IMG/VR virus record: IMGVR_UViG_3300029450_000074
Source: a virus
Lineage: Duplodnaviria > Heunggongvirae > Uroviricota > Caudoviricetes
DNA length: 16,401 nucleotides
Strand: one strand, 5' to 3'
Shown here: piece after piece, positions 4,447-16,401 of the stretch
Numbering within the stretch: the first letter of the stretch is position 1
Layout of the letters: every line of letters starts with the position of its first letter
Position numbers and translations under genes: made by a program
The notes under the pieces: generated by a model
Database searches by the model: none
Told to the model about the DNA's origin: nothing
Seen by the model: the letters and a program-made list of their open reading frames with translations, nothing else

Positions 4447-5097
4447 ATGGACATCACACTGAATCTAAAAATGAAAAAGGATAAAGCATTAGAATTTTAC
4501 GAAAAACTTTATTTCTCAGAAATTGAGAATAAAGACAAGATACATACTCGCGCTCAAGCCGAATTCGGATTAGTTGTCATTACCGCAACTATACTCACTT
4601 ATCTCGCCAAAAACACATCTTATGAATCCCACCCAAGGCTAGCTTGCCTAGTATTTTTATGTACCGCAATTTCATTTGGCTTAGTTCTTGTATCATCAAT
4701 TCTGTTGAAACAAGTCATATGGGGAAATGAATTTAAGTATTGCCCTGCACCTAAAGCATTGCATGATTATCACATAGATCTGATTAGTTACGAAGTGAAA
4801 TATAAAAAATATTGCGATGACAATGGACTTACATACGATGAAAGTTATAACCCTGATAATAAACTTTGGGAGTTTATTCATCAAGAAATCAGAGAGTGTG
4901 CTAGCTGGAACAGTAATATCAATGAGGAACGTTCCAGTAAACTATTTGAGTCAACAAAGTATCTTGTCTGGTCATGGATTCCAATTATCGCAGCAGTAGT
5001 CATATTTCTTTTAGCTGATTTAGATGCAGCATCACCGCGGAAAAATAACGCCCCTAACTATTTGATAATACCTATTGAAAATGTCAGGAGAACTTAA
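4447..5097 (+). CDS. Hypothetical membrane protein (about 3 predicted TM helices), AT-rich accessory gene
   Basis: 216-aa ORF in visibly AT-rich DNA. Hydrophobic segments FGLVVITATILTYLA, LACLVFLCTAISFGLVLVSSILL and LVWSWIPIIAAVVIFLLADL flank a soluble Cys-containing segment of about 85 aa. No clear SD at the 4447 ATG. No family recognised. Confidence 0.5.
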   Translation: MDITLNLKMKKDKALEFYEKLYFSEIENKDKIHTRAQAEFGLVVITATILTYLAKNTSYESHPRLACLVFLCTAISFGLVLVSSILLKQVIWGNEFKYCPAPKALHDYHIDLISYEVKYKKYCDDNGLTYDESYNPDNKLWEFIHQEIRECASWNSNINEERSSKLFESTKYLVWSWIPIIAAVVIFLLADLDAASPRKNNAPNYLIIPIENVRRT

Positions 5098-5936: not shown

Positions 5937-7550
5937 CTACAATACTTTTCTCTCGATGGTATTTTTAATGGTCAACATATCTTTAGGAATACTTTTTTTC
6001 CCCTCTATACGTATGGTAAACACAAAAAGAATAACGGCTGATCTCACAATTTTCATGAGTTGTAAGAGCTGTTTCTCAAACTTTTCTTTCTCAATAAACC
6101 TCACCTCATCAAAAAATCCATAAGAATTATATAAATCAACTAACATGTCTTTCTCATGAATAACTAACAGTTTATGTTCTAAATCATTCCTCCATTCTTT
6201 AAAAAAAGCAAGCTCACCATTTTTATCATTCAAATCCATAGCAATACTAAACAAACCCAGCAATCCTTTATTATTTATTTTATTTATTTTAAGCTTTCTT
6301 TTTTCATCACTAATCCGCCAGAAGTTATGAAAGTATATATGTCCTCTATCTGGTTTTAAATCAAATAATTGACACAGAGCAACTGCTATTTTATCCAAGA
6401 TACCAAAGCAAGCTCTAAATGCAACCCTTAACTTCTCAACATTTTCATACAATATTTCTCCATTATACAATTCAGAATAACATACCTCCGAATCCTCATC
6501 AAAAAACTCACTATCAACCTTATATTCAAAAAACATTTTTCGTGCTAAGGAATACTCAGCTTTAAGTCTATTTAACACCATTTCCATTGGCACTATAAAA
6601 TCACCAAATACACCTTCCTCGGTGGTCGCAATAGTTATATTATCTTTAGATGACGCATAACAATTGCAATATAGCGAATGATCAGACAACATTAGATTAT
6701 TATCTATACAAAACCTCTGGTAGTTTGATAAAGTATCATACTCCTCCTGCGTGAGCCTTTCATCTGTACTTATATCCTCTATGCCATATACACATGATTC
6801 ACTCAATATACTTTCGTTGTGCTTTATTTTTCTTTGAAGAGTAACCTTCCATGAAGGAAAACATTTCCCTGACTTTATTGCACACTCATAACCTCGAATA
6901 ACTTCTTTAATCATTTTATATGTATATGTTGTAGATAATTCATTAAGCAATTCTAATGCCTCAGATCTGTTTACCCACGCCTGAGGAATTGAGTTATCAA
7001 TAGATATTGCTTGTTCATAATAATCCATTGATTCAGATATACGATATTGTTTTTTTAATACATTAGCTAGATTAACTATTAAATCAGGGGGCACCCATCC
7101 ATCTTCTTGTGAAAGTTTAAACGCTTTCCAGTAATTATTTTTTACATCATTCAGCTTAATGAAACTATCAATATCTGCATTGTCATTAGGATCAAAATCA
7201 AGAACTGCGCTCATTCCATTTGCCAAGTTATAGTAATATAAGGATTCTTTCATTATAGTCAGAAATTCATTTTTATTGTTTATAAAGATATTTAAGCCTT
7301 CCTCCGCTATATTTTTTACATTACTAAAACTTCCGATATCAATAAGATTTCCGGCCAAATTAGATAATATAATTATTCTATTTTCTTTGATTGTATTTAT
7401 CTCATCGATACCGTTAAGAATATCCTTTACATTTTTATAGGCAGAATCAAATGAACCTGCATTAATAAGATCATCTACGAACCCCATTTTTGAAACAACA
7501 TAGTTGATATCCNNNNNNNNNNNNNNNNNNNNNNAAGCTAATAATACCAA
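5937..7550 (-). CDS. Hypothetical 537-aa protein, AT-rich cargo gene; candidate anti-phage/abortive-infection protein with a C-terminal HEPN-like R-x4-H motif
   Basis: Long minus-strand ORF in strongly AT-rich DNA between cos and the tum/A module. C-terminal WRNDLEHKLLVIH contains R-N-D-L-E-H (codons verified at 6174-6191). No Walker A seen. N-terminus uncertain: track start is a TTG at 7550, an N-run (7513-7534) lies in the first codons, and the first ATG after it is at 7487. Confidence 0.6.
   Translation of the reverse strand: MVLLAXXXXXXXXDINYVVSKMGFVDDLINAGSFDSAYKNVKDILNGIDEINTIKENRIIILSNLAGNLIDIGSFSNVKNIAEEGLNIFINNKNEFLTIMKESLYYYNLANGMSAVLDFDPNDNADIDSFIKLNDVKNNYWKAFKLSQEDGWVPPDLIVNLANVLKKQYRISESMDYYEQAISIDNSIPQAWVNRSEALELLNELSTTYTYKMIKEVIRGYECAIKSGKCFPSWKVTLQRKIKHNESILSESCVYGIEDISTDERLTQEEYDTLSNYQRFCIDNNLMLSDHSLYCNCYASSKDNITIATTEEGVFGDFIVPMEMVLNRLKAEYSLARKMFFEYKVDSEFFDEDSEVCYSELYNGEILYENVEKLRVAFRACFGILDKIAVALCQLFDLKPDRGHIYFHNFWRISDEKRKLKINKINNKGLLGLFSIAMDLNDKNGELAFFKEWRNDLEHKLLVIHEKDMLVDLYNSYGFFDEVRFIEKEKFEKQLLQLMKIVRSAVILFVFTIRIEGKKSIPKDMLTIKNTIERKVL
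7513..7534. other. N-run (22 nt) inside the 5' end of the 537-aa cargo ORF
   Basis: Literal n characters in the sequence. Confidence 1.
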
Positions 7551-8393: not shown

Positions 8394-10771
8394 TTAATAC
8401 AGGTTCCGCCACTTATCATCTTCCTGCAAACGCTGGTTCCGATAGAAAATACGCAGGCCTGCTCCTGACGGAATGCTGCCGCCGCGAAGGAGTAAATCGA
8501 CCTCTTTCTCGCTGCCATCAAATCCTCTGGACTTCAGTTCATAGACGAGCTGCTGTCGCTGATGATCTGTAATTCGCTGTTTGTAGTCTCTACGCCGTTT
8601 CGGTTTCACCAGGCGTAACCTTGCAGCCAGTTCCCGGCGCTCTTTTTTGTTCATATTGTGCAGGTAATCGTGCAATTCCTTGTCATCCATGCGGGTGATA
8701 TCCGTTCTGGTATCCCCATCAGCTGATTTGTCTTTCCCTTGTTGGTACAAATTTTCAGCAAGGGGACAGTTATTGCCACGAGTCCAAGGGGCGCAAGCGC
8801 CCTGATCGGCTGCCGCCTCCTGAACGTCAACGGCCTTACGAACCATTTTCCACTTCACTGCATGAGTGCAGATCTTGCCCTCTGCAATGGGTGACCAGAT
8901 GCCATAAATACGAATACCGTGATCGCCATAGGCGGTTGGCTCTTCGTTGATTTCATAAGCGGTTCTGATGAGGTGATATTTGCGGGGAACCAGTACGCCG
9001 CCCTGCTTCATGATGTAGGTGGCAAAACAACCAGCATCAGCAGCAGCCAGAATGGCATCAAGACGCGGGTTATCCAGTACCGGCGCACCTGCTTTTTTGT
9101 CACCCTGTTGCCTTGCCGCCTGACCAGCCAGCAAGCGAAGTTCACGGTAAGCCTGACGTCCCGGAATACCAAAGAAGCGGAATTGCTGAACACGATGCAG
9201 AGACGCCCAGGCATTAACGTATTCAGCGTTATCACGCAGGGATTTACCCGTTTCCTTGCTGATCTCGCCAGCCAGACCACGCCCGTCAATGTTCTTACTG
9301 ATGTATTTCGCGATGTAGCTTGTCGGCGTTCCTTTGCGCGGGTTTATCAGCTCAGATTTAAAGCGTGGACCAGTGTTATTACCCAGTTCCTCGCGGTCTT
9401 CACGGATGGCAAACTTACGCAACAATGCAGTAATGGCGCGGCGGTCTTTTTTGCGCATGAAACACAACAGGTGCCAGTGAACTGTACCGTCATGATGCGG
9501 CTCAGCCACCCGCACGCCATACCAGCGCAACTCGGCTTTGTGCATCGCCTTACGAAATGCAGCAAACATGCCGACCAGATAATCGCTGCTTTGTCTTACC
9601 GTCGCATTTGTCCAGGTTGGGTTTGGTCTGCCGTTATTGAGCGTGGAATGGAAACGTGACGGACAGGTAATGGTGTAGAAAACGGCGCAGTCACCGCGCA
9701 TTTCCGCGATAAGCTCCAGACCTTTAACACAGGCCATCATCTCATTGCGGCGGTGCGCCGGGTTGCTGCTGCTGGCGTTTACCACGTCTTCCATNNNNNN
9801 NNNNNNNNNNNNNCCTCTTCGTTCACCAGTTCATGAGAACGGAAAAACTCCAGTGACTTGCGGCGCTGCTCACGTTTATGCATCACGGCTTCATAGCTGA
9901 CATAGGGAGATGCTTTTTTGCTGACCAGGCAGACAGCACGCAACTGCTCTTCCCGCCATTCGCAACGCATCTTCCATAATTTCCGGTACCACCAGTCAGC
10001 GCACAACATACGCGCCAGCGAACCCGGAATGAGTTCATAGGGCACGGGTTTACGGCGGTTTCTTTTCCGGCGGAGTTGCTCAAACGCAGGCGGGATGACA
10101 TCCAGACGCAGGGTTTCCGCTGCCACCTTTTCCCATGTCTTGCGGATTTCTTCTGGCTTAACGTCATCGGTGACATACAAATCGCCACAAGCTGCATCAA
10201 GGCACATGCTCATATGCGCAGCTACCAGGGTGGACAGGCGTTTCACCTGATCCTGACTCATTTCAGGCAGGATCAGCAGGCCGTCCAGCCCTACATGGCT
10301 TGCCATAAAGCGAAAAGAAGTGGATAGCTGACAGTCGCGTACATGCTCCAGCCGTTCCAGACATGGCTTAATCGTCTCACGCAAATAGCGGGAATAAGCC
10401 TTTGGCCTGCCCAGGCTGCTGAAGTATTCAATACGTTGCATCAGTGGCTTGCTGATATGGGAAGGCTGGGCATTGACGTCCGCCAGAATGACCATATCTG
10501 GATTAAAACGCTGCTGCTCATGCGCCAGCTTTGCCCGACTAATGAGCTTATCCTGCTCCATTTCGCGCTGGACAGGATCACGGGATTCATTAAAGAAATA
10601 ACGCTCCCAGACCTGATCACTCAGTGCCTCGCGGCGCAGCTGTTCCTGCTCGTTATCGGCAGCGTACAGAGCGATCAGGTTTGAAAGCGCAGAAACTGAA
10701 GATTGCTCTTCTGTCTCTACGTAAGGATTGATTGCTTTTTTCTCAGCATTCCAGGAATAGCTGTAGTTCAT
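8394..10771 (-). CDS. A: Replication initiation protein, P2 gpA family (HUH rolling-circle endonuclease); reading frame interrupted at N-run 9795-9813
   Basis: Two adjacent minus-strand track ORFs (9779-10822 and 8394-9794). The downstream part carries HUH motif [10 protein letters not shown] and tandem-tyrosine motif YIAKYISK. Likely start is ATG 10771 (GGAGA SD) rather than the TTG at 10822. The two parts are in different frames across the 19-nt N-run. Confidence 0.75.
9795..9813. other. N-run (19 nt) inside replication gene A
   Basis: Literal n characters in the sequence. Confidence 1.
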
Positions 10772-10849
10772 TACGCAATCTCCAGTTCGAGCTGTGAAGG
10801 CTGCAAACCATTCGACAGCCAATCAGAAACTGAAGGTGGGCGAACAGCT

Positions 10850-11608
10850 TCAATTGCACCTTTTAAAATTGCGCAACGGTTTTTCAGAATGACAGCTTTC
10901 AGCTCCTTTTCCGTCANNNNNNNNNNNNNNNNNNNNNTCAGCCTCCTGAATAGCCCGCGTCAGCTCAGGATATTTGCTATTAAATTTGGGGACATTGCAG
11001 GCAAGATTTGTACTGTCGGCAGTCGCCAGTGGGTAATTTCCCAACACACGACCGTCAAGCATGCGCAAACCATGAACAGCTGTTTTGAAATTGTGTCGGC
11101 AATAAATTGCTTCAAAAGCGTCCTGCATACGACGATGCCAGTGCGCAGTTCTGATAGCCGCATATTCACCAGACGATCCAAAGCAGACACGAGGCCATTC
11201 ACGACATAGCTCGATAAGCCGATCGATTGACTCGTGCAGATGCCAGACGGGAGTTGCCTTCCCGTAGAACATTTTCGGAACTTCGTTTATCAGGGCATCA
11301 TTGTCACGTTCACCTCCGTCCACAACATCAGGAATGACAAAAAAAGCGACCTTAGGATGGTGGTAATAGTTCAGGAGCCATTTATAAAAATCACTCCAGT
11401 TAATTTTTAGCCCACGCACCCATGCAGAAAATGCGCCGTTATCAATGCCGACGACCTGAGCGTGCTGAATGGACGCCGCAATCTGATCTGGTCGTACATA
11501 GGAGACGAAAGCGCCAGCTCCGCTCACCGCAATACGATGAACGTCGCCAGCACTTCCCCAGACAGGCGTCCCATGGAAATGATGAATTCCGTGGTGCATT
11601 TCTTTCAC
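10850..11608 (-). CDS. Hypothetical 252-aa protein translationally coupled to the Dam methyltransferase; family unassigned
   Basis: Start (GTG 11606-11608 or ATG 11597-11599) overlaps or abuts the Dam stop (TGA 11605-11607). Motifs GIDNGAFSAW and VIPDVVDGG have a weak, unverified resemblance to TGT/DpdA-type signatures; no zinc-binding Cys cluster. N-run 10917-10937 lies near the C-terminus. Confidence 0.45.
   Translation of the reverse strand: MKEMHHGIHHFHGTPVWGSAGDVHRIAVSGAGAFVSYVRPDQIAASIQHAQVVGIDNGAFSAWVRGLKINWSDFYKWLLNYYHHPKVAFFVIPDVVDGGERDNDALINEVPKMFYGKATPVWHLHESIDRLIELCREWPRVCFGSSGEYAAIRTAHWHRRMQDAFEAIYCRHNFKTAVHGLRMLDGRVLGNYPLATADSTNLACNVPKFNSKYPELTRAIQEAXXXXXXXXDGKGAESCHSEKPLRNFKRCN
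10917..10937. other. N-run (21 nt) inside the Dam-coupled 252-aa ORF
   Basis: Literal n characters in the sequence. Confidence 1.
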
Positions 11609-12459
11609 ACTTGCACCCCGAAAATAACAGTAGAGTCACGTCCCCTACTAAAATCGGCACTAAACCAATTAGCAGATTTAGTGGCAATCATCTCTGTTGC
11701 AAATTTTCCCTCCCCCGCTGCAACGCCGATGCTGCGTTTCGCCCTGATGTAGTGGTGAGTGAAATTACGATAAAGGGACCGGGTCAAAGACGTGTTACTG
11801 TTAGAAACAATGACCGGATGTCCTTCTGATGACCGATGTTCAAGAATGGATGCCAGGTGATACTGATCATCTTCAGTGAAACCATCAGTGTGATAGCCGG
11901 AAAACGTACCGTCATAAGGCGGATCGCAATACACCACATCCCCCACCTTCAACATCGCCAGCGTTTCATCAAAGCTGGCGCAGATAAACGTTGCCCGCTG
12001 GGCTTTCTCTGCAAATGCGCGAATTTCTTTTTCAGGGAAATACGGATTTTTATAATTACCGTAGGGAATGTTGAAATGCCCGCTCTTGTTATAGCGACAT
12101 AAACCACGGTAACCGTGACGATTGAGATACAGGAAATATACCGCTTTCATGAAATCAGTAATTTCAGTGGAGTAATTAAACTCCTGCCTTATGTTGTAAT
12201 AAGCCACCTCCCTGTTTGCTTCCTCAAATAAAGCTCTGGCACGAGATATAAACGCCTCACAATCAGCAGCAACCTTTTTATAGAGGTTGATTAAATCAGG
12301 ATTAATATCCGCAACAAGATAGCTGGGGTAATCCGTCTCCATCATCACTGCACAGGAACCCGCGAAAGGTTCAACCAGTCGCGGGCCAGCAGGAAGATGC
12401 TTTTTCAGTTCGGACATTATGGCGGTTTTATTTCCTGCCCATTTCAGGATGGTGCTCAT
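11605..12459 (-). CDS. DNA adenine methyltransferase (Dam / D12-class N6-adenine MTase)
   Basis: N-terminus [23 protein letters not shown] resembles the Dam N-terminus; AdoMet motif EPFAGSCAV and catalytic DPPY ([10 protein letters not shown]) present. ATG at 12457-12459 with GGAGGT 6 nt upstream, overlapping the upstream zinc-finger gene stop. Confidence 0.85.
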
Positions 12460-14038: not shown

Positions 14039-14260
14039 CTAATTAAGGTTTAGATTGCATTCTGAAAGCGCATCAACGGTCATGGCTGCTATGTTGATCA
14101 TCACTTTTTCACGTTTTTTATCTTTGCGCAGACGGTGACGGATAAGGCGTCCGTCAGCCAACATGTCATTGATGGTATCGATGGACAGCCCTGTCAGCTC
14201 GCTATAGCGTTCAATAGTCACATGAGGCGTGGTAAGAGTGATTGAAATGTTAGGTCTCAT
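14039..14260 (-). CDS. Apl/Cox-like small HTH regulator (excisionase/lytic-operon repressor position)
   Basis: 73-aa first gene of the leftward operon diverging from the repressor gene; HTH-like segment [25 protein letters not shown]. Confidence 0.55.
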
Positions 14261-14385
14261 GATGCAACATTCCTCGTTTAATGATGATTAATCAGGACGA
14301 ATACGGATCGTTTGTATTTTGTGAACACCATAAACATACGATCGCACAGTGAAATCGTCAAGATAAAAGTTCACTTGGAGTGACC
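14261..14385. promoter_or_regulatory. Lysogeny/lysis switch region; candidate leftward lytic promoter
   Basis: On the minus strand: -35 TTGACG (plus 14356-14361), 17-nt spacer, -10 TATGTT (plus 14333-14338), reading toward the Apl-like gene. A rightward repressor promoter was not confidently located. Confidence 0.35.
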
Positions 14386-14955
14386 ATGAATTTGGAGAAA
14401 GGCGGACGAGGCGCTATAGAGCGCATGGTAGAAGCTTATGGATTCAAAACTCGACAGGCGTTGTGCGATCATTTAGGAATCTCTAAAAGTACACTCGCCA
14501 CACGCTACATGCGTGACTCATTCCCAGCAGAATGGGTAATCCAGTGCGCCCTTGAAACGGGCACCTCGCTTAATTGGCTCACAACCGGACATGGTTCAAA
14601 GCAAACTTCAGGTAATACAAATACTATGGAAGTTGCTAAATATGTATTATCTGATGGTGCCTTGCGTGAAGACGGTTTTTATATTTTTGATAAGGGATTT
14701 CTACCCTCTACGTTTAAAAAACCTTTTGTCATCACAGATAACAATTCTGAATTTATTTGTGATAAAGAATTTGATGATATACGTGACGGTAAATGGGTAA
14801 TAAGTATTGATGGCGAAATAACAATCCGCGACATTACTCGTTTACCCGGTGGAAGAATCTTCGTTGAAGGTGGAAACAGAGCCTTCGAGTGCAAGATAGA
14901 AGATGTTGAAATAATTGGGAAAATTATAAGTTTAACAATTAAGTACGTTAGGTAA
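14386..14955 (+). CDS. cI: CI-type immunity repressor (186 CI-like, N-terminal HTH)
   Basis: 189 aa from ATG 14386 (GGAG 5 nt upstream; track start 14380 is a GTG). HTH TRQALCDHLGISKSTLATRYMRD. Size fits 186 CI (about 192 aa), not P2 C (99 aa). Confidence 0.7.
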   Translation: MNLEKGGRGAIERMVEAYGFKTRQALCDHLGISKSTLATRYMRDSFPAEWVIQCALETGTSLNWLTTGHGSKQTSGNTNTMEVAKYVLSDGALREDGFYIFDKGFLPSTFKKPFVITDNNSEFICDKEFDDIRDGKWVISIDGEITIRDITRLPGGRIFVEGGNRAFECKIEDVEIIGKIISLTIKYVR

Positions 14956-14970
14956 TACCGGGAGGAAACT

Positions 14971-15162
14971 ATGCTTGGTAAGGTATTTTTTGTGGTTTTA
15001 TCATGCTCTTTGTTATTAAACCCACTAACTACCTATGCTAAAAATTATCCTTGTTCTGGGAAAAAGGGAGGTGTCTCTCACTGTACCTCCGATGGAAAGT
15101 TCGTTTGCAATGATGGAACTATTAGTAAATCAAAAAAAATCTGTACTAAAAACTCGCGATAA
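14971..15162 (+). CDS. Small secreted cysteine-rich peptide (signal peptide plus about 40-aa mature peptide with 4 Cys)
   Basis: Strong SD GGGAGG before ATG 14971; N-terminal [23 protein letters not shown] looks like a Sec signal peptide; mature part [40 protein letters not shown] is basic with 4 cysteines. AT-rich insert between cI and int. Confidence 0.5.
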
Positions 15163-15348
15163 ATTTTGCTTTTATATCTGCGCCTAATATAACAATGAGC
15201 CGCAGGCTAACCGCAAAAGTCACATACTCATATAGCAAAAAATAGCCAACTTCATTATGGCTTCAGTGAGATGTATGGTCGCAGGATTTCATACATTGAC
15301 ACTGGTTATATATACAGCAAAAATGCTCTCTATTGGAGGGCATTTTTT

Positions 15349-16401
15349 ATGGCAGTACGAAAACTCACCACAGGAAAATGGCTTTGCGAATGTTACCCCG
15401 CCGGACGTAGTGGGCGTCGTGTGCGTAAACAATTCGCCACCAAAGGCGAAGCTCTGGCTTTTGAGCGCCATACGATGGAAGAAACCGAAGCAAAGCCCTG
15501 GCTGGGAGAATCAGTGGATCGTCGAACACTGAAAGACGTGGTTGAGCTATGGTTCAAACTACATGGTAAATCTCTAACCGCTGGGCAGCATGTCTATGAT
15601 AAATTGCTGTTGATGGTTGACGCTCTGGGCAATCCCCTTGCAACCGATCTCACCTCTAAAATGTTTGCCCACTATCGAGATAAACGCCTGACAGGTGAGA
15701 TCTACTTCAGCGAGAAATGGAAGAAAGGAGCAAGCCCGGTCACCATTAACCTGGAGCAAAGCTATCTAAGTAGTGTTTTTAGCGAACTATCCCGCCTGGG
15801 CGAATGGTCGTATCCAAACCCACTGGAGAACATGCGAAAATTCACCATCGCAGAAAAAGAGATGGCATGGCTTACCCATGAGCAGATTGTTGAACTGCTG
15901 GCTGATTGCAAACGTCAGGACCCAATTCTGGCACTGGTAGTCAAGATATGCTTAAGCACAGGCGCACGCTGGCGAGAAGCAATAAACCTTACCCGATCAC
16001 AGGTGACTAAATACCGAATTACCTTTGTAAGAACGAAGGGGAAGAAAAACAGAAGCATCCCTATCAGTAAAGAGCTTTATGAAGAGATCATGGCGCTTGA
16101 TGGGTTTAATTTCTTCACAGACTGCTATTTTCAATTTTTATCCGTGATGGAAAAAACGTCAATCGTGCTCCCTCGCGGTCAACTGACACACGTTCTGCGC
16201 CATACGTTTGCGGCGCATTTCATGATGTCGGGTGGAAATATCCTTGCTTTGCAAAAAATCCTCGGACATCACGATATAAAAATGACTATGCGTTACGCTC
16301 ATCTGGCACCGGATCATCTGGAAACGGCGCTCCGTTTCAATCCTCTGGCAACGCTGCCAAGTGGCGACAAAGTGGCGGCAGCGGTTGGCATTACCCCGTA
16401 A
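15349..16401 (+). CDS. int: Tyrosine integrase (P2/186 Int family)
   Basis: ATG 15349 with GGAGGG SD; catalytic residues in GARWREA (Arg), HVLRHTF (His-x-x-Arg) and MTMRYAHL (Tyr). Stop codon TAA is the last 3 bases of the window. Confidence 0.9.
   Translation: MAVRKLTTGKWLCECYPAGRSGRRVRKQFATKGEALAFERHTMEETEAKPWLGESVDRRTLKDVVELWFKLHGKSLTAGQHVYDKLLLMVDALGNPLATDLTSKMFAHYRDKRLTGEIYFSEKWKKGASPVTINLEQSYLSSVFSELSRLGEWSYPNPLENMRKFTIAEKEMAWLTHEQIVELLADCKRQDPILALVVKICLSTGARWREAINLTRSQVTKYRITFVRTKGKKNRSIPISKELYEEIMALDGFNFFTDCYFQFLSVMEKTSIVLPRGQLTHVLRHTFAAHFMMSGGNILALQKILGHHDIKMTMRYAHLAPDHLETALRFNPLATLPSGDKVAAAVGITP

What the first reader, a model, noticed from the sequence alone, without database searches (positions are those of the whole stretch)
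14971..15162. Small secreted, basic, four-cysteine peptide inserted between repressor and integrase
Seen: a 63-aa ORF with a strong SD, a signal-peptide-like N-terminus and a roughly 40-aa K-rich mature region with 4 Cys, in AT-rich DNA between cI and int. Inference: as a lysogen-expressed moron in the repressor operon it could be a lysogenic-conversion factor such as a toxin-like or exclusion peptide. No family recognised.
Basis: partly seen in the sequence, partly recalled or inferred. Interest (0 to 1): 0.4.

Follow-up and report, generated by a model that had tools for sequence, protein, structure and literature searches.

The report
Prophage copy of periplasmic mini-protein YdcA
The small ORF is a real gene for an exported, disulfide-rich, very basic 40-residue protein of the already catalogued but functionally unknown YdcA family, carried just after the repressor gene in a common 186-type E. 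coli prophage, so it is ordinary as a catalogue entry although what it does is still open.

Summary
Window 14971-15162 (+) is a 63-aa ORF with a GGGAGG ribosome-binding site. It has a classical signal peptide (cleavage after T-Y-A23) and a 40-aa mature part with 4 Cys and pI 9.6. It lies 15 nt after cI and 186 nt before int in a 186-type prophage.

"No family recognised" is wrong. The ORF passes NCBIfam NF007463 (116 bits, cut-off 93), matches PHROG 6000 and Pfam PF27300 (YdcA), and RefSeq already labels it "YdcA family protein". It is a paralogue of K-12 ydcA, whose function is unknown.

It is under strong purifying selection (mature part pN 0.04 against pS 0.81). It accompanies this cI type in about 633 of 648 E. 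coli genomes. It holds the same cI-adjacent slot in Yersinia, Hafnia and Haemophilus HP2/S2 prophages. So it is a fixed passenger of the lysogeny operon rather than a recent insertion. The truly variable cargo slot lies just downstream of it.

Function is inferred only. The domain also occurs fused to unrelated secreted nucleases and in tandem arrays, and it resembles the lobes of Legionella Dis2. I read it as a non-enzymatic periplasmic binding module for a polyanion, DNA or envelope, made in lysogens. There is no support for a toxin.

The parts
14386..14955 (+). cI repressor gene (186/HP1 type), first gene of the lysogenic operon
   Evidence: ORF list. RefSeq annotation 'phage repressor protein CI' at the 99.8% identical locus L001. 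The near-identical locus L022 hits Pfam Phage_CI_repr and Phage_CI_C.
14960..14965 (+). Shine-Dalgarno sequence GGGAGG, 5 nt upstream of the ATG
   Evidence: Read directly from the sequence.
14971..15162 (+). ydcA-family gene (63 codons plus stop)
   Evidence: ORF. NF007463 116.1 bits against cut-off 93. PHROG 6000, E 4.6e-34. PF27300 on the 97%-identical cluster representative. Mature region pN 0.038 against pS 0.81.
14971..15039 (+). signal-peptide coding part (residues 1-23, [23 protein letters not shown])
   Evidence: n/h/c regions and a -3/-1 T-x-A site. Position -1 is Ala in all 31 aligned relatives. This part evolves fast (pN 0.446). The cleavage site is predicted, not measured.
15040..15159 (+). 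mature peptide coding part (40 aa, [40 protein letters not shown])
   Evidence: Near-invariant domain across alpha-, beta- and gamma-proteobacteria with 4 invariant Cys. AF2 domain model has pLDDT 79 and a beta-hairpin core.
15163..15348 (.). 186-bp spacer between ydcA and int; it occupies the position of a variable cargo slot and is empty here
   Evidence: Window 15155-15342 has no counterpart in sister locus L003. There, 1421 bp carrying a KAP NTPase (PADLOC PDC-S20) take its place. No remnant of cargo genes was found.
15296..15324 (+). promoter-like element upstream of int (TTGACA-17-AAAAAT) overlapping an imperfect palindrome
   Evidence: Promoter scan. The same TTGAC[ACT]...[TA]AAAAT element is conserved in Escherichia, Hafnia and Yersinia loci; the ACTGT-N8-ACAGT palindrome is exact only in the Hafnia and Yersinia loci and imperfect in the window and L003. 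Function not tested.
15349..16401 (+). tyrosine integrase gene
   Evidence: RefSeq annotation of L001. 94.8% identity to int of the sister prophage.
14039..14260 (-). apl/cox-like gene, transcribed divergently from cI; marks the switch region 14261-14385
   Evidence: ORF. Position and size match 186-type loci. A promoter-like site lies on the - strand at 14361-14333.

Best explanation
Shown: this is the prophage paralogue of the YdcA family, and the gene is real and under strong constraint.

Inferred from position: it is the second gene of the lysogenic transcript (cI - ydcA - [cargo slot] - int). It would therefore be made continuously in lysogens together with the repressor.

Predicted from sequence and family pattern: the 23-residue signal peptide sends it through Sec, and signal peptidase I cuts after Ala23.

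Inferred: in the periplasm the four invariant cysteines form two disulfides. This gives a 4.3-kDa, pI 9.6 knot built round a beta-hairpin.

Most likely mechanism (inferred): it has no catalytic motif and works as a small binding module for a conserved polyanionic ligand. My leading candidate for that ligand is DNA present in the periplasm or at the cell surface. The reasons are that the same domain is found as the N-terminal module of several structurally unrelated secreted nucleases and in tandem arrays, and that its conserved GKKGG and SKSKK motifs are strongly basic.

In a lysogen such a protein would act as a lysogenic-conversion factor in the envelope. It might interfere with DNA that enters the periplasm, or otherwise change envelope behaviour. 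It would not act as a toxin.

Identity, export and operon position are about 0.9 certain. The binding-module reading is about 0.6. DNA as the ligand is about 0.35.
For: Family membership:
- NF007463 116 bits against cut-off 93; PHROG 6000; PF27300; RefSeq label.

Selection:
- Mature part pN 0.038 / pS 0.81; signal peptide pN 0.446.

Signal peptide:
- Position -1 is Ala in 31/31 and position -3 is small in 31/31. K-12 YdcA is described as periplasmic with a signal sequence (bioRxiv 10.1101/2024.02.12.579971).

Operon:
- A 15-nt gap after cI, a strong SD, and no + strand terminator-like site.

Linkage to cI:
- cI in 648 and ydcA in 633 E. coli genomes. The same slot is used in Hafnia, Yersinia, HP2/S2 and a Pasteurellaceae genome.

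Binding-module inference:
- Of 28 longer relatives, 3 carry Endonuclease_NS, 1 SNase, 1 PLDc_2 and 1 Endonuclea_NS_2. One more looks HNH-like by eye. Tandem 2-3x arrays also occur.
- Core-domain net charge averages +4.3, and 82% of domains are +3 or higher.
- No conserved neighbour across 80 loci, so the protein acts on its own.

Disulfides and periplasmic location:
- The only notable fold and sequence match is Legionella Dis2. Dis2 is a periplasmic, outer-membrane-proximal protein whose two similar lobes are pinned by five disulfides (PMC8486379).
Against: - Nothing here measures expression, export, disulfides or ligand binding.
- Nuclease fusions are equally explained if the domain anchors enzymes in the envelope rather than binding DNA.
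- Dis2 sits at the periphery of the T4SS cap, touching lipoproteins DotC, DotD and DotK, not DNA (PMC12716638).
- The only phenotypes for the K-12 paralogue concern organic-acid stress (3-HP sensitivity, acid induction; PMC7642389), not DNA.
- The nuclease fusions are a minority. Most of the 809 clusters are stand-alone proteins of 54-70 aa. The fusions come from unnamed metagenome proteins.
- Incoming phage DNA is generally thought to be shielded in the periplasm (my own knowledge). That weakens a DNA-interception role in E. coli.
Confidence: 0.4

Rival explanations
1. [quoted passage not shown] The prophage copy would be an extra, constitutively expressed dose of the host YdcA function. That would improve envelope or organic-acid stress tolerance of the lysogen, as a host-fitness conversion gene.
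For: - Deleting K-12/W ydcA makes cells sensitive to 300 mM 3-hydroxypropionate, and ydcA is reported as acid-induced through YdcI (PMC7642389).
- ydcA is up-regulated in persister-forming and delta-pnp cultures.
- The mature parts of the prophage and K-12 proteins are about 72% identical.
- Dis2, the only structural relative, lies next to the outer membrane and contacts lipoproteins DotC/DotD and the OmpA-like DotK.
- One relative is fused to T6SS VasL.
- Envelope anchoring would also explain the nuclease fusions.
Against: - The 3-HP phenotype is a single study and was suppressed by deleting yieP.
- Dis2 similarity is marginal by sequence once the signal peptide is removed (E 0.021).
- This reading does not by itself explain why phages of four genera keep the gene glued to cI.
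Confidence: 0.33
2. Superinfection or entry exclusion through protein-protein binding. The periplasmic knot would dock on an outer-membrane-proximal machine, such as a phage tail tip or spike, a secretin or a T4SS cap, and block entry of competing phages or plasmids. This is analogous in logic to T4 Sp or to Cor/Llp.
For: - Co-expression with the repressor is the classic place for exclusion genes.
- The slot immediately downstream carries defence-type cargo in sister prophages (KAP NTPase matching PADLOC PDC-S20).
- Dis2 shows that this fold can be a peripheral subunit of an envelope-spanning machine.
- The gene is repeatedly carried by phages and plasmids of Moraxella, Acinetobacter, Haemophilus and Pseudomonas.
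Against: - No match to any PADLOC model or to any functionally annotated PHROG.
- Stand-alone chromosomal copies in many species argue for a general cellular role.
- The extreme conservation of the mature peptide across proteobacterial classes is unusual for an arms-race protein.
Confidence: 0.15
3. Secreted toxin, bacteriocin or defensin-like antimicrobial peptide.
For: It is small, cationic and cysteine-rich with a signal peptide, and it is AT-rich, mobile-element-borne DNA.
Against: - No toxin or bacteriocin family hit.
- No adjacent immunity or export gene, and no conserved partner in 80 loci.
- Sec export in a Gram-negative cell stops in the periplasm (my own knowledge).
- A stand-alone chromosomal paralogue exists in K-12, and its deletion is harmful under stress rather than beneficial.
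Confidence: 0.03
4. Lipoprotein: cleavage by signal peptidase II at the VLSC motif (Cys12), giving an acylated membrane-anchored peptide.
For: Residues 9-12 (V-L-S-C) fit a relaxed lipobox pattern.
Against: - Cys12 leaves only about 7 hydrophobic residues before it, shorter than usual for lipoprotein signals (my own knowledge of the PROSITE rule).
- Only 4 of 31 relatives have any such motif. K-12 YdcA, HP2 and Moraxella proteins have none.
- The A-x-A-type site before the domain is invariant.
Confidence: 0.03
5. Phage-phage or phage-host signalling peptide encoded beside the lysis-lysogeny switch (arbitrium-like logic).
For: It is a small exported peptide gene next to the repressor.
Against: - It is a folded, disulfide-rich domain with many non-phage chromosomal copies and multi-domain fusions.
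- There is no receptor gene nearby, and Sec export alone does not release it from a Gram-negative cell.
Confidence: 0.02

Closest known systems
E. coli K-12 YdcA (b1419, 57 aa)
   Same: Same family and architecture: a signal peptide ending in Ala, then PCSGxKGG(V/I)SHC...[13 protein letters not shown] with four Cys. The mature parts are about 72% identical. It is described as a predicted periplasmic small protein of unknown function.
   Different: It is chromosomal and stand-alone, between rydC and hokB, and is stress-regulated. The window gene is in a prophage lysogeny operon. It falls in a separate NCBIfam equivalog: NF007463 at 116 bits, against NF007462 at 68 bits, which is below that model's cut-off of 118.
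cI-linked YdcA genes of other 186/HP1-type prophages (Escherichia sister type, Hafnia, Yersinia, Haemophilus HP2/S2)
   Same: Same gene in the same slot directly after cI and before int, with a near-identical mature peptide.
   Different: The signal peptides differ almost completely. A cargo gene may follow: KAP NTPase/PDC-S20 in Escherichia, a 347-aa membrane protein in Hafnia, orf1(S) in HP2. The window has none. In HP2 and S2 the ORF is not annotated.
Legionella pneumophila Dis2 (Lpg0823), outer-membrane-cap subunit of the Dot/Icm T4SS (PDB 7MUC/7MUD chain AN)
   Same: It is the only notable structural match. Foldseek probability is 0.77-0.84, TM 0.58-0.63 and 38% identity over 37-39 columns; the next hits are at or below 0.13. 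The shared motif is C(C/S).K.GG(I/V)..C...G..VCN(N/D)G. It is periplasmic and disulfide-pinned.
   Different: Dis2 has two lobes with five disulfides, is less basic in the aligned stretch, and is a stoichiometric part of a T4SS. The sequence link is marginal without the signal peptide (E 0.021). No T4SS genes are near the window gene.
Small envelope proteins made by lysogens or early in infection (lambda Bor/Lom, T5 Llp, phi80/HK022 Cor, T4 Sp/Imm)
   Same: Logic only: a small exported protein made from a prophage that could alter the envelope or exclude other phages (my own knowledge).
   Different: No sequence or profile similarity to any of them was found. Most of those are lipoproteins or membrane proteins, whereas this one is predicted to be soluble in the periplasm.
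PBCV_basic_adap / 'GPRGG' basic cysteine motif domain (PF08789)
   Same: It co-occurs with the YdcA domain in about 105-160-aa relatives (C.C...G..CTGPRGG.YC...G.K.Y). It has a similar C-x-G-x-(K/R)-G-G...C layout.
   Different: The window protein lacks this second module and does not hit PF08789.

Membership tests
YdcA family (NCBIfam NF007463 / PRK10040.1-2; Pfam PF27300; PHROG 6000) | Score above the curated whole-protein cut-off of the family model | tested here: met
   NF007463 gives 116.1 bits against cut-off 93, over residues 5-63 and profile positions 1-58 of 58. PHROG 6000 gives E 4.6e-34.
YdcA family (NCBIfam NF007463 / PRK10040.1-2; Pfam PF27300; PHROG 6000) | Pfam PF27300 domain | tested here: met
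   Indirect. The local Pfam copy lacks the model. The 97%-identical cluster representative P0001 and all close relatives carry precomputed PF27300, named 'YdcA'.
YdcA family (NCBIfam NF007463 / PRK10040.1-2; Pfam PF27300; PHROG 6000) | Signal peptide with an A-x-A-type site, followed by a 35-40-aa domain with four invariant Cys and PCSG.KGG / F.C.DG / S.SKK.C motifs | tested here: met
   Alignments A1 and A3 show P, C, S, GG, C, F, C, G, S, S and C invariant, and position -1 Ala in 31/31.
   Only a relaxed VLSC at residues 9-12. It is present in 4 of 31 relatives and absent from the K-12, HP2 and Moraxella proteins.
Dis2 (Lpg0823) of the Dot/Icm T4SS | Significant sequence similarity | tested here: inconclusive
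   The full-length profile gives E 5.2e-5, but the alignment includes the signal peptide. The domain-only profile gives E 0.021, level with chance LDL-A repeat hits.
Dis2 (Lpg0823) of the Dot/Icm T4SS | Same fold | tested here: inconclusive
   It is the top Foldseek hit with both models: probability 0.77-0.84, TM 0.58-0.63, E 0.16-0.37, rmsd about 4.2 A.
Dis2 (Lpg0823) of the Dot/Icm T4SS | Two-lobed protein with five disulfides that is part of a T4SS | tested here: not met
   The window protein has a single domain with four Cys. There are no T4SS genes in the window or in the related prophage loci.
Known anti-phage defence systems (PADLOC-DB 2.0) | Match to any defence-protein model | tested here: not met
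   0 families for the window protein. By contrast, the KAP NTPase that follows the gene in sister prophages matches PDC-S20 at E 1.3e-171.
Secreted toxins / bacteriocins | Family match, or a linked immunity or export gene | tested here: not met
   No Pfam, NCBIfam or PHROG toxin hit. A census of 143 flanking ORFs in 80 loci shows no recurrent partner except phage cI and int.
Lysogenic-conversion genes (functional class, not a sequence family) | Expressed from the prophage in the lysogen and changes the host phenotype | not testable with these tools
   The operon position argues for expression. No expression or phenotype data were available.

The most novel reading that the evidence does not exclude
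YdcA-type knots are periplasmic DNA-binding modules. The copy hard-wired behind cI in 186/HP1-type prophages would intercept DNA that enters the periplasm, either transforming DNA in naturally competent hosts such as Haemophilus, Moraxella and Acinetobacter, or DNA of competing elements. That would protect the prophage from being recombined out or displaced. This would be a new, non-enzymatic class of lysogen-encoded DNA-entry exclusion. It would also give a function to the orphan E. coli gene ydcA and to Legionella Dis2.
Probability: 0.12. Interest if true: 0.65.

Novelty: already known. Interest (0 to 1): 0.3.

Why it matters
As a sequence object it is already catalogued: a RefSeq 'YdcA family protein' with a dedicated NCBIfam equivalog and a PHROG. 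The finding itself is therefore ordinary.

Three things were not found in the literature searched:
1. The gene is a fixed companion of the 186/HP1-type repressor in several genera, and it is present in about 12% of complete E. coli genomes.
2. The domain recurs at the N-terminus of unrelated secreted nucleases.
3. It resembles the lobes of Dis2, which its authors describe as Legionella-specific and without homologues.

Together these turn an orphan into a testable hypothesis about a periplasmic binding module that temperate phages keep switched on in lysogens.

Tried and rejected
- **Local Pfam scan.** Only a sub-threshold chance hit (GULLO2-like, E 0.068), because the local library lacks PF27300.
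- **Rfam on the whole window.** Nothing.
- **PADLOC.** Nothing for the peptide.
- **Megablast against phage isolates.** Only int-start matches in Klebsiella phages. No sequenced coliphage isolate carries the gene.
- **'ydcA' in plasmid pS88 and in the gonococcal genetic island.** pS88's 'ydcA' is an unrelated gene (a putative DNA methylase) that shares the name. The island's 'ydcA' is named only as a region boundary and I did not check its product. Lead dropped.
- **UniRef label 'Conjugal transfer protein' on the cluster.** No supporting context; treated as mislabelling.
- **lpg1681 family.** A weak hit (E 0.11). I read the paper, but the hit is too weak to use.
- **LDL-receptor class A repeats and a proteinase inhibitor.** They appear at E 0.01-0.25 with the domain profile. 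Judged to be cysteine-pattern chance matches.
- **BFVD fold search.** No meaningful match.
- **Conserved downstream partner.** Moraxella chromosomal and phage copies share a membrane-anchored neighbour, but the HP2, Acinetobacter and E. coli neighbours are unrelated.
- **Remnant of a deleted cargo gene in the 186-bp spacer.** None found.
- **Context in Acinetobacter plasmid p3ABAYE.** An accessory region, not a transfer operon.

Full report
**1. What is there**

The window is the left end of a 186-type (Peduoviridae) prophage of E. coli. On the - strand lie replication gene A, dam, a TraR/DksA-like gene, fil, cII and an apl/cox-like gene (14039-14260). On the + strand lie cI (14386-14955), the ORF in question (14971-15162) and int (15349-16401). 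In a 99.8%-identical RefSeq locus the prophage abuts rcdA/ybjJ.

- It has 63 codons, with GGGAGG five bases before the ATG and 15 nt after the cI stop.
- Its N-terminus has one Lys, a hydrophobic core and T-Y-A at -3 to -1.
- The remaining 40 residues have 8 Lys + 1 Arg against 2 Asp, pI 9.64, and Cys at mature positions 5, 15, 23 and 35.
- GC is about 0.35 here, against 0.43-0.52 in most flanking DNA. The 3' half of cI is as AT-rich.

**2. It is a real gene in a known family**

- It passes the curated cut-off of NCBIfam NF007463 (PRK10040.1-2; 116.1 bits against 93) over the whole model.
- It matches PHROG 6000 at E 4.6e-34.
- Its 97%-identical cluster representative carries Pfam PF27300 'YdcA'. 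The local Pfam copy lacks that model, which is why a direct scan gave only noise.
- RefSeq already calls the identical protein WP_001321204.1 'YdcA family protein'.
- The type member is K-12 YdcA (b1419, 57 aa), between rydC and hokB.

Alignment of 31 relatives shows a freely varying signal peptide that always ends in Ala (with A/S/T/V at -3). It is followed by an almost invariant [30 protein letters not shown].

I compared the window gene with the 72%-identical sister prophage. Synonymous sites are saturated in both halves (pS 0.81). Non-synonymous change is 0.038 in the mature part and 0.446 in the signal peptide. That is the signature of an exported protein whose mature domain is under strong purifying selection.

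The relaxed lipobox VLSC at residues 9-12 is not conserved (4 of 31) and lies too close to the N-terminus. I reject the lipoprotein reading.

**3. How common it is, and how it is embedded**

This cI type occurs in 648 of 5426 complete E. coli genomes. The ydcA-plus-spacer segment occurs in 633 of them, 590 at full length.

Against a sister prophage of another immunity type (L003), apl-cI-ydcA align as one block at 71.7% and int aligns at 94.8%. The 188 bp between them (window 15155-15342) is replaced by 1421 bp carrying a KAP-family NTPase. That NTPase matches the PADLOC candidate defence system PDC-S20 at E 1.3e-171.

The same order, cI - ydcA - [cargo or nothing] - int, is found elsewhere:
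- in Hafnia alvei, where the cargo is a 347-aa membrane protein;
- in Yersinia enterocolitica, alsatica, aldovae and nurmii;
- in a Pasteurellaceae genome (L036);
- in Haemophilus phages HP2 and S2, where a 60-aa ORF starts at the cI stop codon and is not annotated in the records.

The gene is therefore not a recent insertion into the cI-int interval. It is an old companion of the 186/HP1-type repressor, and the exchangeable slot lies immediately after it.

The spacer in the window carries no recognisable remnant of cargo. Its 3' end holds a promoter-like TTGACA-17-AAAAAT overlapping an imperfect palindrome. The promoter-like element is conserved upstream of int in Escherichia, Hafnia and Yersinia, and the ACTGT-N8-ACAGT palindrome is exact only in the Hafnia and Yersinia loci.

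No terminator-like site lies on the + strand between cI, ydcA and int. Co-transcription with cI from the lysogenic promoter is therefore the simplest reading. This is inferred, not shown.

**4. The wider family**

- A profile search of 1.84 billion cluster representatives found 465 clusters (E <= 1e-3).
- The word-indexed search found 809 clusters at 90% identity, nearly all stand-alone proteins of 54-70 aa.
- A scan of one genome per species found relatives in 356 species of alpha-, beta- and gamma-proteobacteria.
- Copies also sit in 20 Moraxella catarrhalis prophages, in Acinetobacter phages and plasmids (including a 3.9-kb mobilisable plasmid with five genes), in a Pseudomonas phage and in Rhizobium plasmids.
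- A census of 143 ORFs flanking the gene in 80 loci found only two recurrent neighbours, phage cI (5) and phage integrase (6). Otherwise there were 72 different families.

So there is no conserved partner, and the protein presumably acts alone.

Twenty-eight longer relatives were scanned. They include tandem arrays of two or three domains, a frequent C-terminal C.C..G..CTGPRGG.YC module (PBCV_basic_adap-like), and N-terminal fusions to secreted nucleases of unrelated folds:
- Endonuclease_NS x3;
- SNase x1;
- PLD-like x1;
- Endonuclea_NS_2 x1;
- one HNH-like by eye;
- one fusion to T6SS VasL.

The core domain carries a mean net charge of +4.3.

**5. Structure**

AlphaFold2 models give a small beta-hairpin-centred knot. 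The full length scores pLDDT 76 and the domain alone scores 79.

Against the PDB, the only hit that stands out with either model is chain AN of 7MUC/7MUD, Legionella Dis2 (Lpg0823). It has probability 0.77-0.84, TM 0.58-0.63 and 38% identity; every other hit is at or below 0.13.

A family profile also finds Dis2 by sequence (E 5.2e-5) and aligns to both of its repeats. With the signal peptide removed the E-value falls to 0.021, level with chance matches to LDL-A repeats. I therefore rate the homology as probable, not proven.

Dis2 is a periplasmic subunit of the Dot/Icm outer-membrane cap. It has two similar lobes pinned by five disulfides, lies next to the outer membrane, and contacts DotC, DotD and DotK. 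It is dispensable for assembly and is described as Legionella-specific without homologues (PMC8486379; PMC12716638).

If the relationship holds, it gives experimental backing for two points: this fold is exported and disulfide-bonded, and it acts as a binding module rather than an enzyme.

**6. What it most likely does**

*Shown:* family membership, selective constraint, position and linkage.

*Predicted:* Sec export, cleavage after Ala23 and two disulfides.

*Inferred:* expression in the lysogen and a binding function.

My leading reading is a periplasmic module that binds a polyanion. DNA is the first candidate because of the repeated nuclease fusions, the tandem arrays and the conserved basic motifs. 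I put confidence at about 0.35 for DNA and about 0.6 for 'binding module' in general.

The main rival, almost as likely, is that the ligand is the outer-membrane-proximal envelope. The prophage copy would then add to the host YdcA function. That reading also explains the nuclease fusions, as anchoring. It fits Dis2 and VasL. It also fits the only phenotypes known for the paralogue, namely 3-HP sensitivity of delta-ydcA and acid induction (PMC7642389), and up-regulation in persister-forming and delta-pnp cultures.

An exclusion role through protein-protein docking is possible. A toxin, a lipoprotein, a signalling peptide or a spurious ORF are all unlikely, for the reasons given under the rival explanations.

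**7. Comparison with the known, and novelty**

The object itself is already known: it is annotated, has its own NCBIfam equivalog and belongs to a PHROG. Its function is unknown, as is that of the whole family. The searched literature says only 'small periplasmic protein of unknown function'.

Its interpretation is partly supported: the gene is in the repressor operon, is exported, and may be a conversion factor. It is wrong on 'no family' and unsupported on 'toxin-like'.

Interest is modest at 0.3. It is a well-conserved orphan that temperate phages keep beside their repressor, now with concrete and testable leads, but nothing here is surprising enough to rank high.

Noticed in passing
window 15155-15342; L003 5198-6529; L013 3747-4790; L010 3612-4376: The interval between ydcA and int is an exchangeable cargo slot in 186/HP1-type prophages. 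It is empty in the window. It holds a KAP NTPase (PADLOC PDC-S20, E 1.3e-171) in a sister E. coli prophage, a 347-aa multi-pass membrane protein in Hafnia, and the secreted orf1(S) in HP2. In Yersinia loci, KAP-like and DUF4917 genes sit just beyond int.
   Followed up: partly
window 15293-15324 (and L003 6553-6590, L013 4815-4855, L015 3710-3745): A conserved promoter-like element (TTGAC[ACT], 17-18 nt, [TA]AAAAT) lies directly upstream of int in the Escherichia, Hafnia and Yersinia prophages. A palindrome ACTGT-N8-ACAGT between the hexamers is exact only in the Hafnia and Yersinia loci and imperfect in the window and L003. It could be a regulated int promoter or operator.
   Followed up: partly
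L010 3420-3602 (Haemophilus phage HP2, record coordinates about 2486-2668; the same in phage S2): A 60-aa YdcA-family ORF ([60 protein letters not shown]) starts at the cI stop codon. It is not annotated in the HP2 and S2 GenBank records.
   Followed up: yes
PDB 7MUC/7MUD chain AN (Legionella Dis2, Lpg0823): Dis2 is described in the literature as Legionella-specific with no structural or sequence relatives. It looks like a tandem pair of YdcA-like domains (profile E 5.2e-5 including the signal peptide, 0.021 without it; Foldseek probability about 0.8).
   Followed up: partly
window 8397-11683 (- strand): Replication gene A appears broken. Residues 339-804 of the intact homologue align in frame -2 (9794-8397) and residues 18-333 in frame -3 (10762-9815). 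About 790 extra bases (10697-11683, with a 252-aa ORF lacking any Pfam hit) replace 195 bp of the reference locus. The prophage may be defective, or the sequence may carry frameshift errors.
   Followed up: partly
window 5937-7550 (- strand), with 4447-5097 (+): A 537-aa protein with a LA2681-like HEPN domain (PF18733, E 1.9e-38) lies in a region downstream of the capsid and terminase genes. Related E. coli prophages carry other cargo in this region (retron Ec67-type RT, PIN-domain protein). It looks like a second defence-type hotspot.
   Followed up: partly
L007 5001-5884; L011 3938-4578: In Moraxella, both the chromosomal and the prophage ydcA copies are followed within 10-15 nt by a membrane-anchored protein. 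These share a conserved N-terminus (TM helix + LETPEQKAEREA) but have different C-termini. This is a genus-specific two-gene cassette.
   Followed up: partly
relatives P0105, P0174, P0156, P0198, P0181, P0205 (metagenomic): The YdcA domain occurs as the N-terminal module of secreted nucleases of at least four unrelated folds (SNase, Endonuclease_NS, PLD-like, HNH-like). It is often paired with a C-terminal CTGPRGG.YC motif module in proteins of about 105-160 aa.
   Followed up: partly
L021 728-904 (Acinetobacter pittii plasmid pApiMCR53a, 3916 bp): A 3.9-kb mobilisable plasmid with only five annotated genes devotes one of them to a YdcA-family protein. This suggests the gene pays its way on minimal mobile elements.
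   Followed up: no
window 14997-15006 (residues 9-12, VLSC): There is a relaxed lipobox-like motif inside the signal peptide. It is not conserved in the family and is probably fortuitous.
   Followed up: yes
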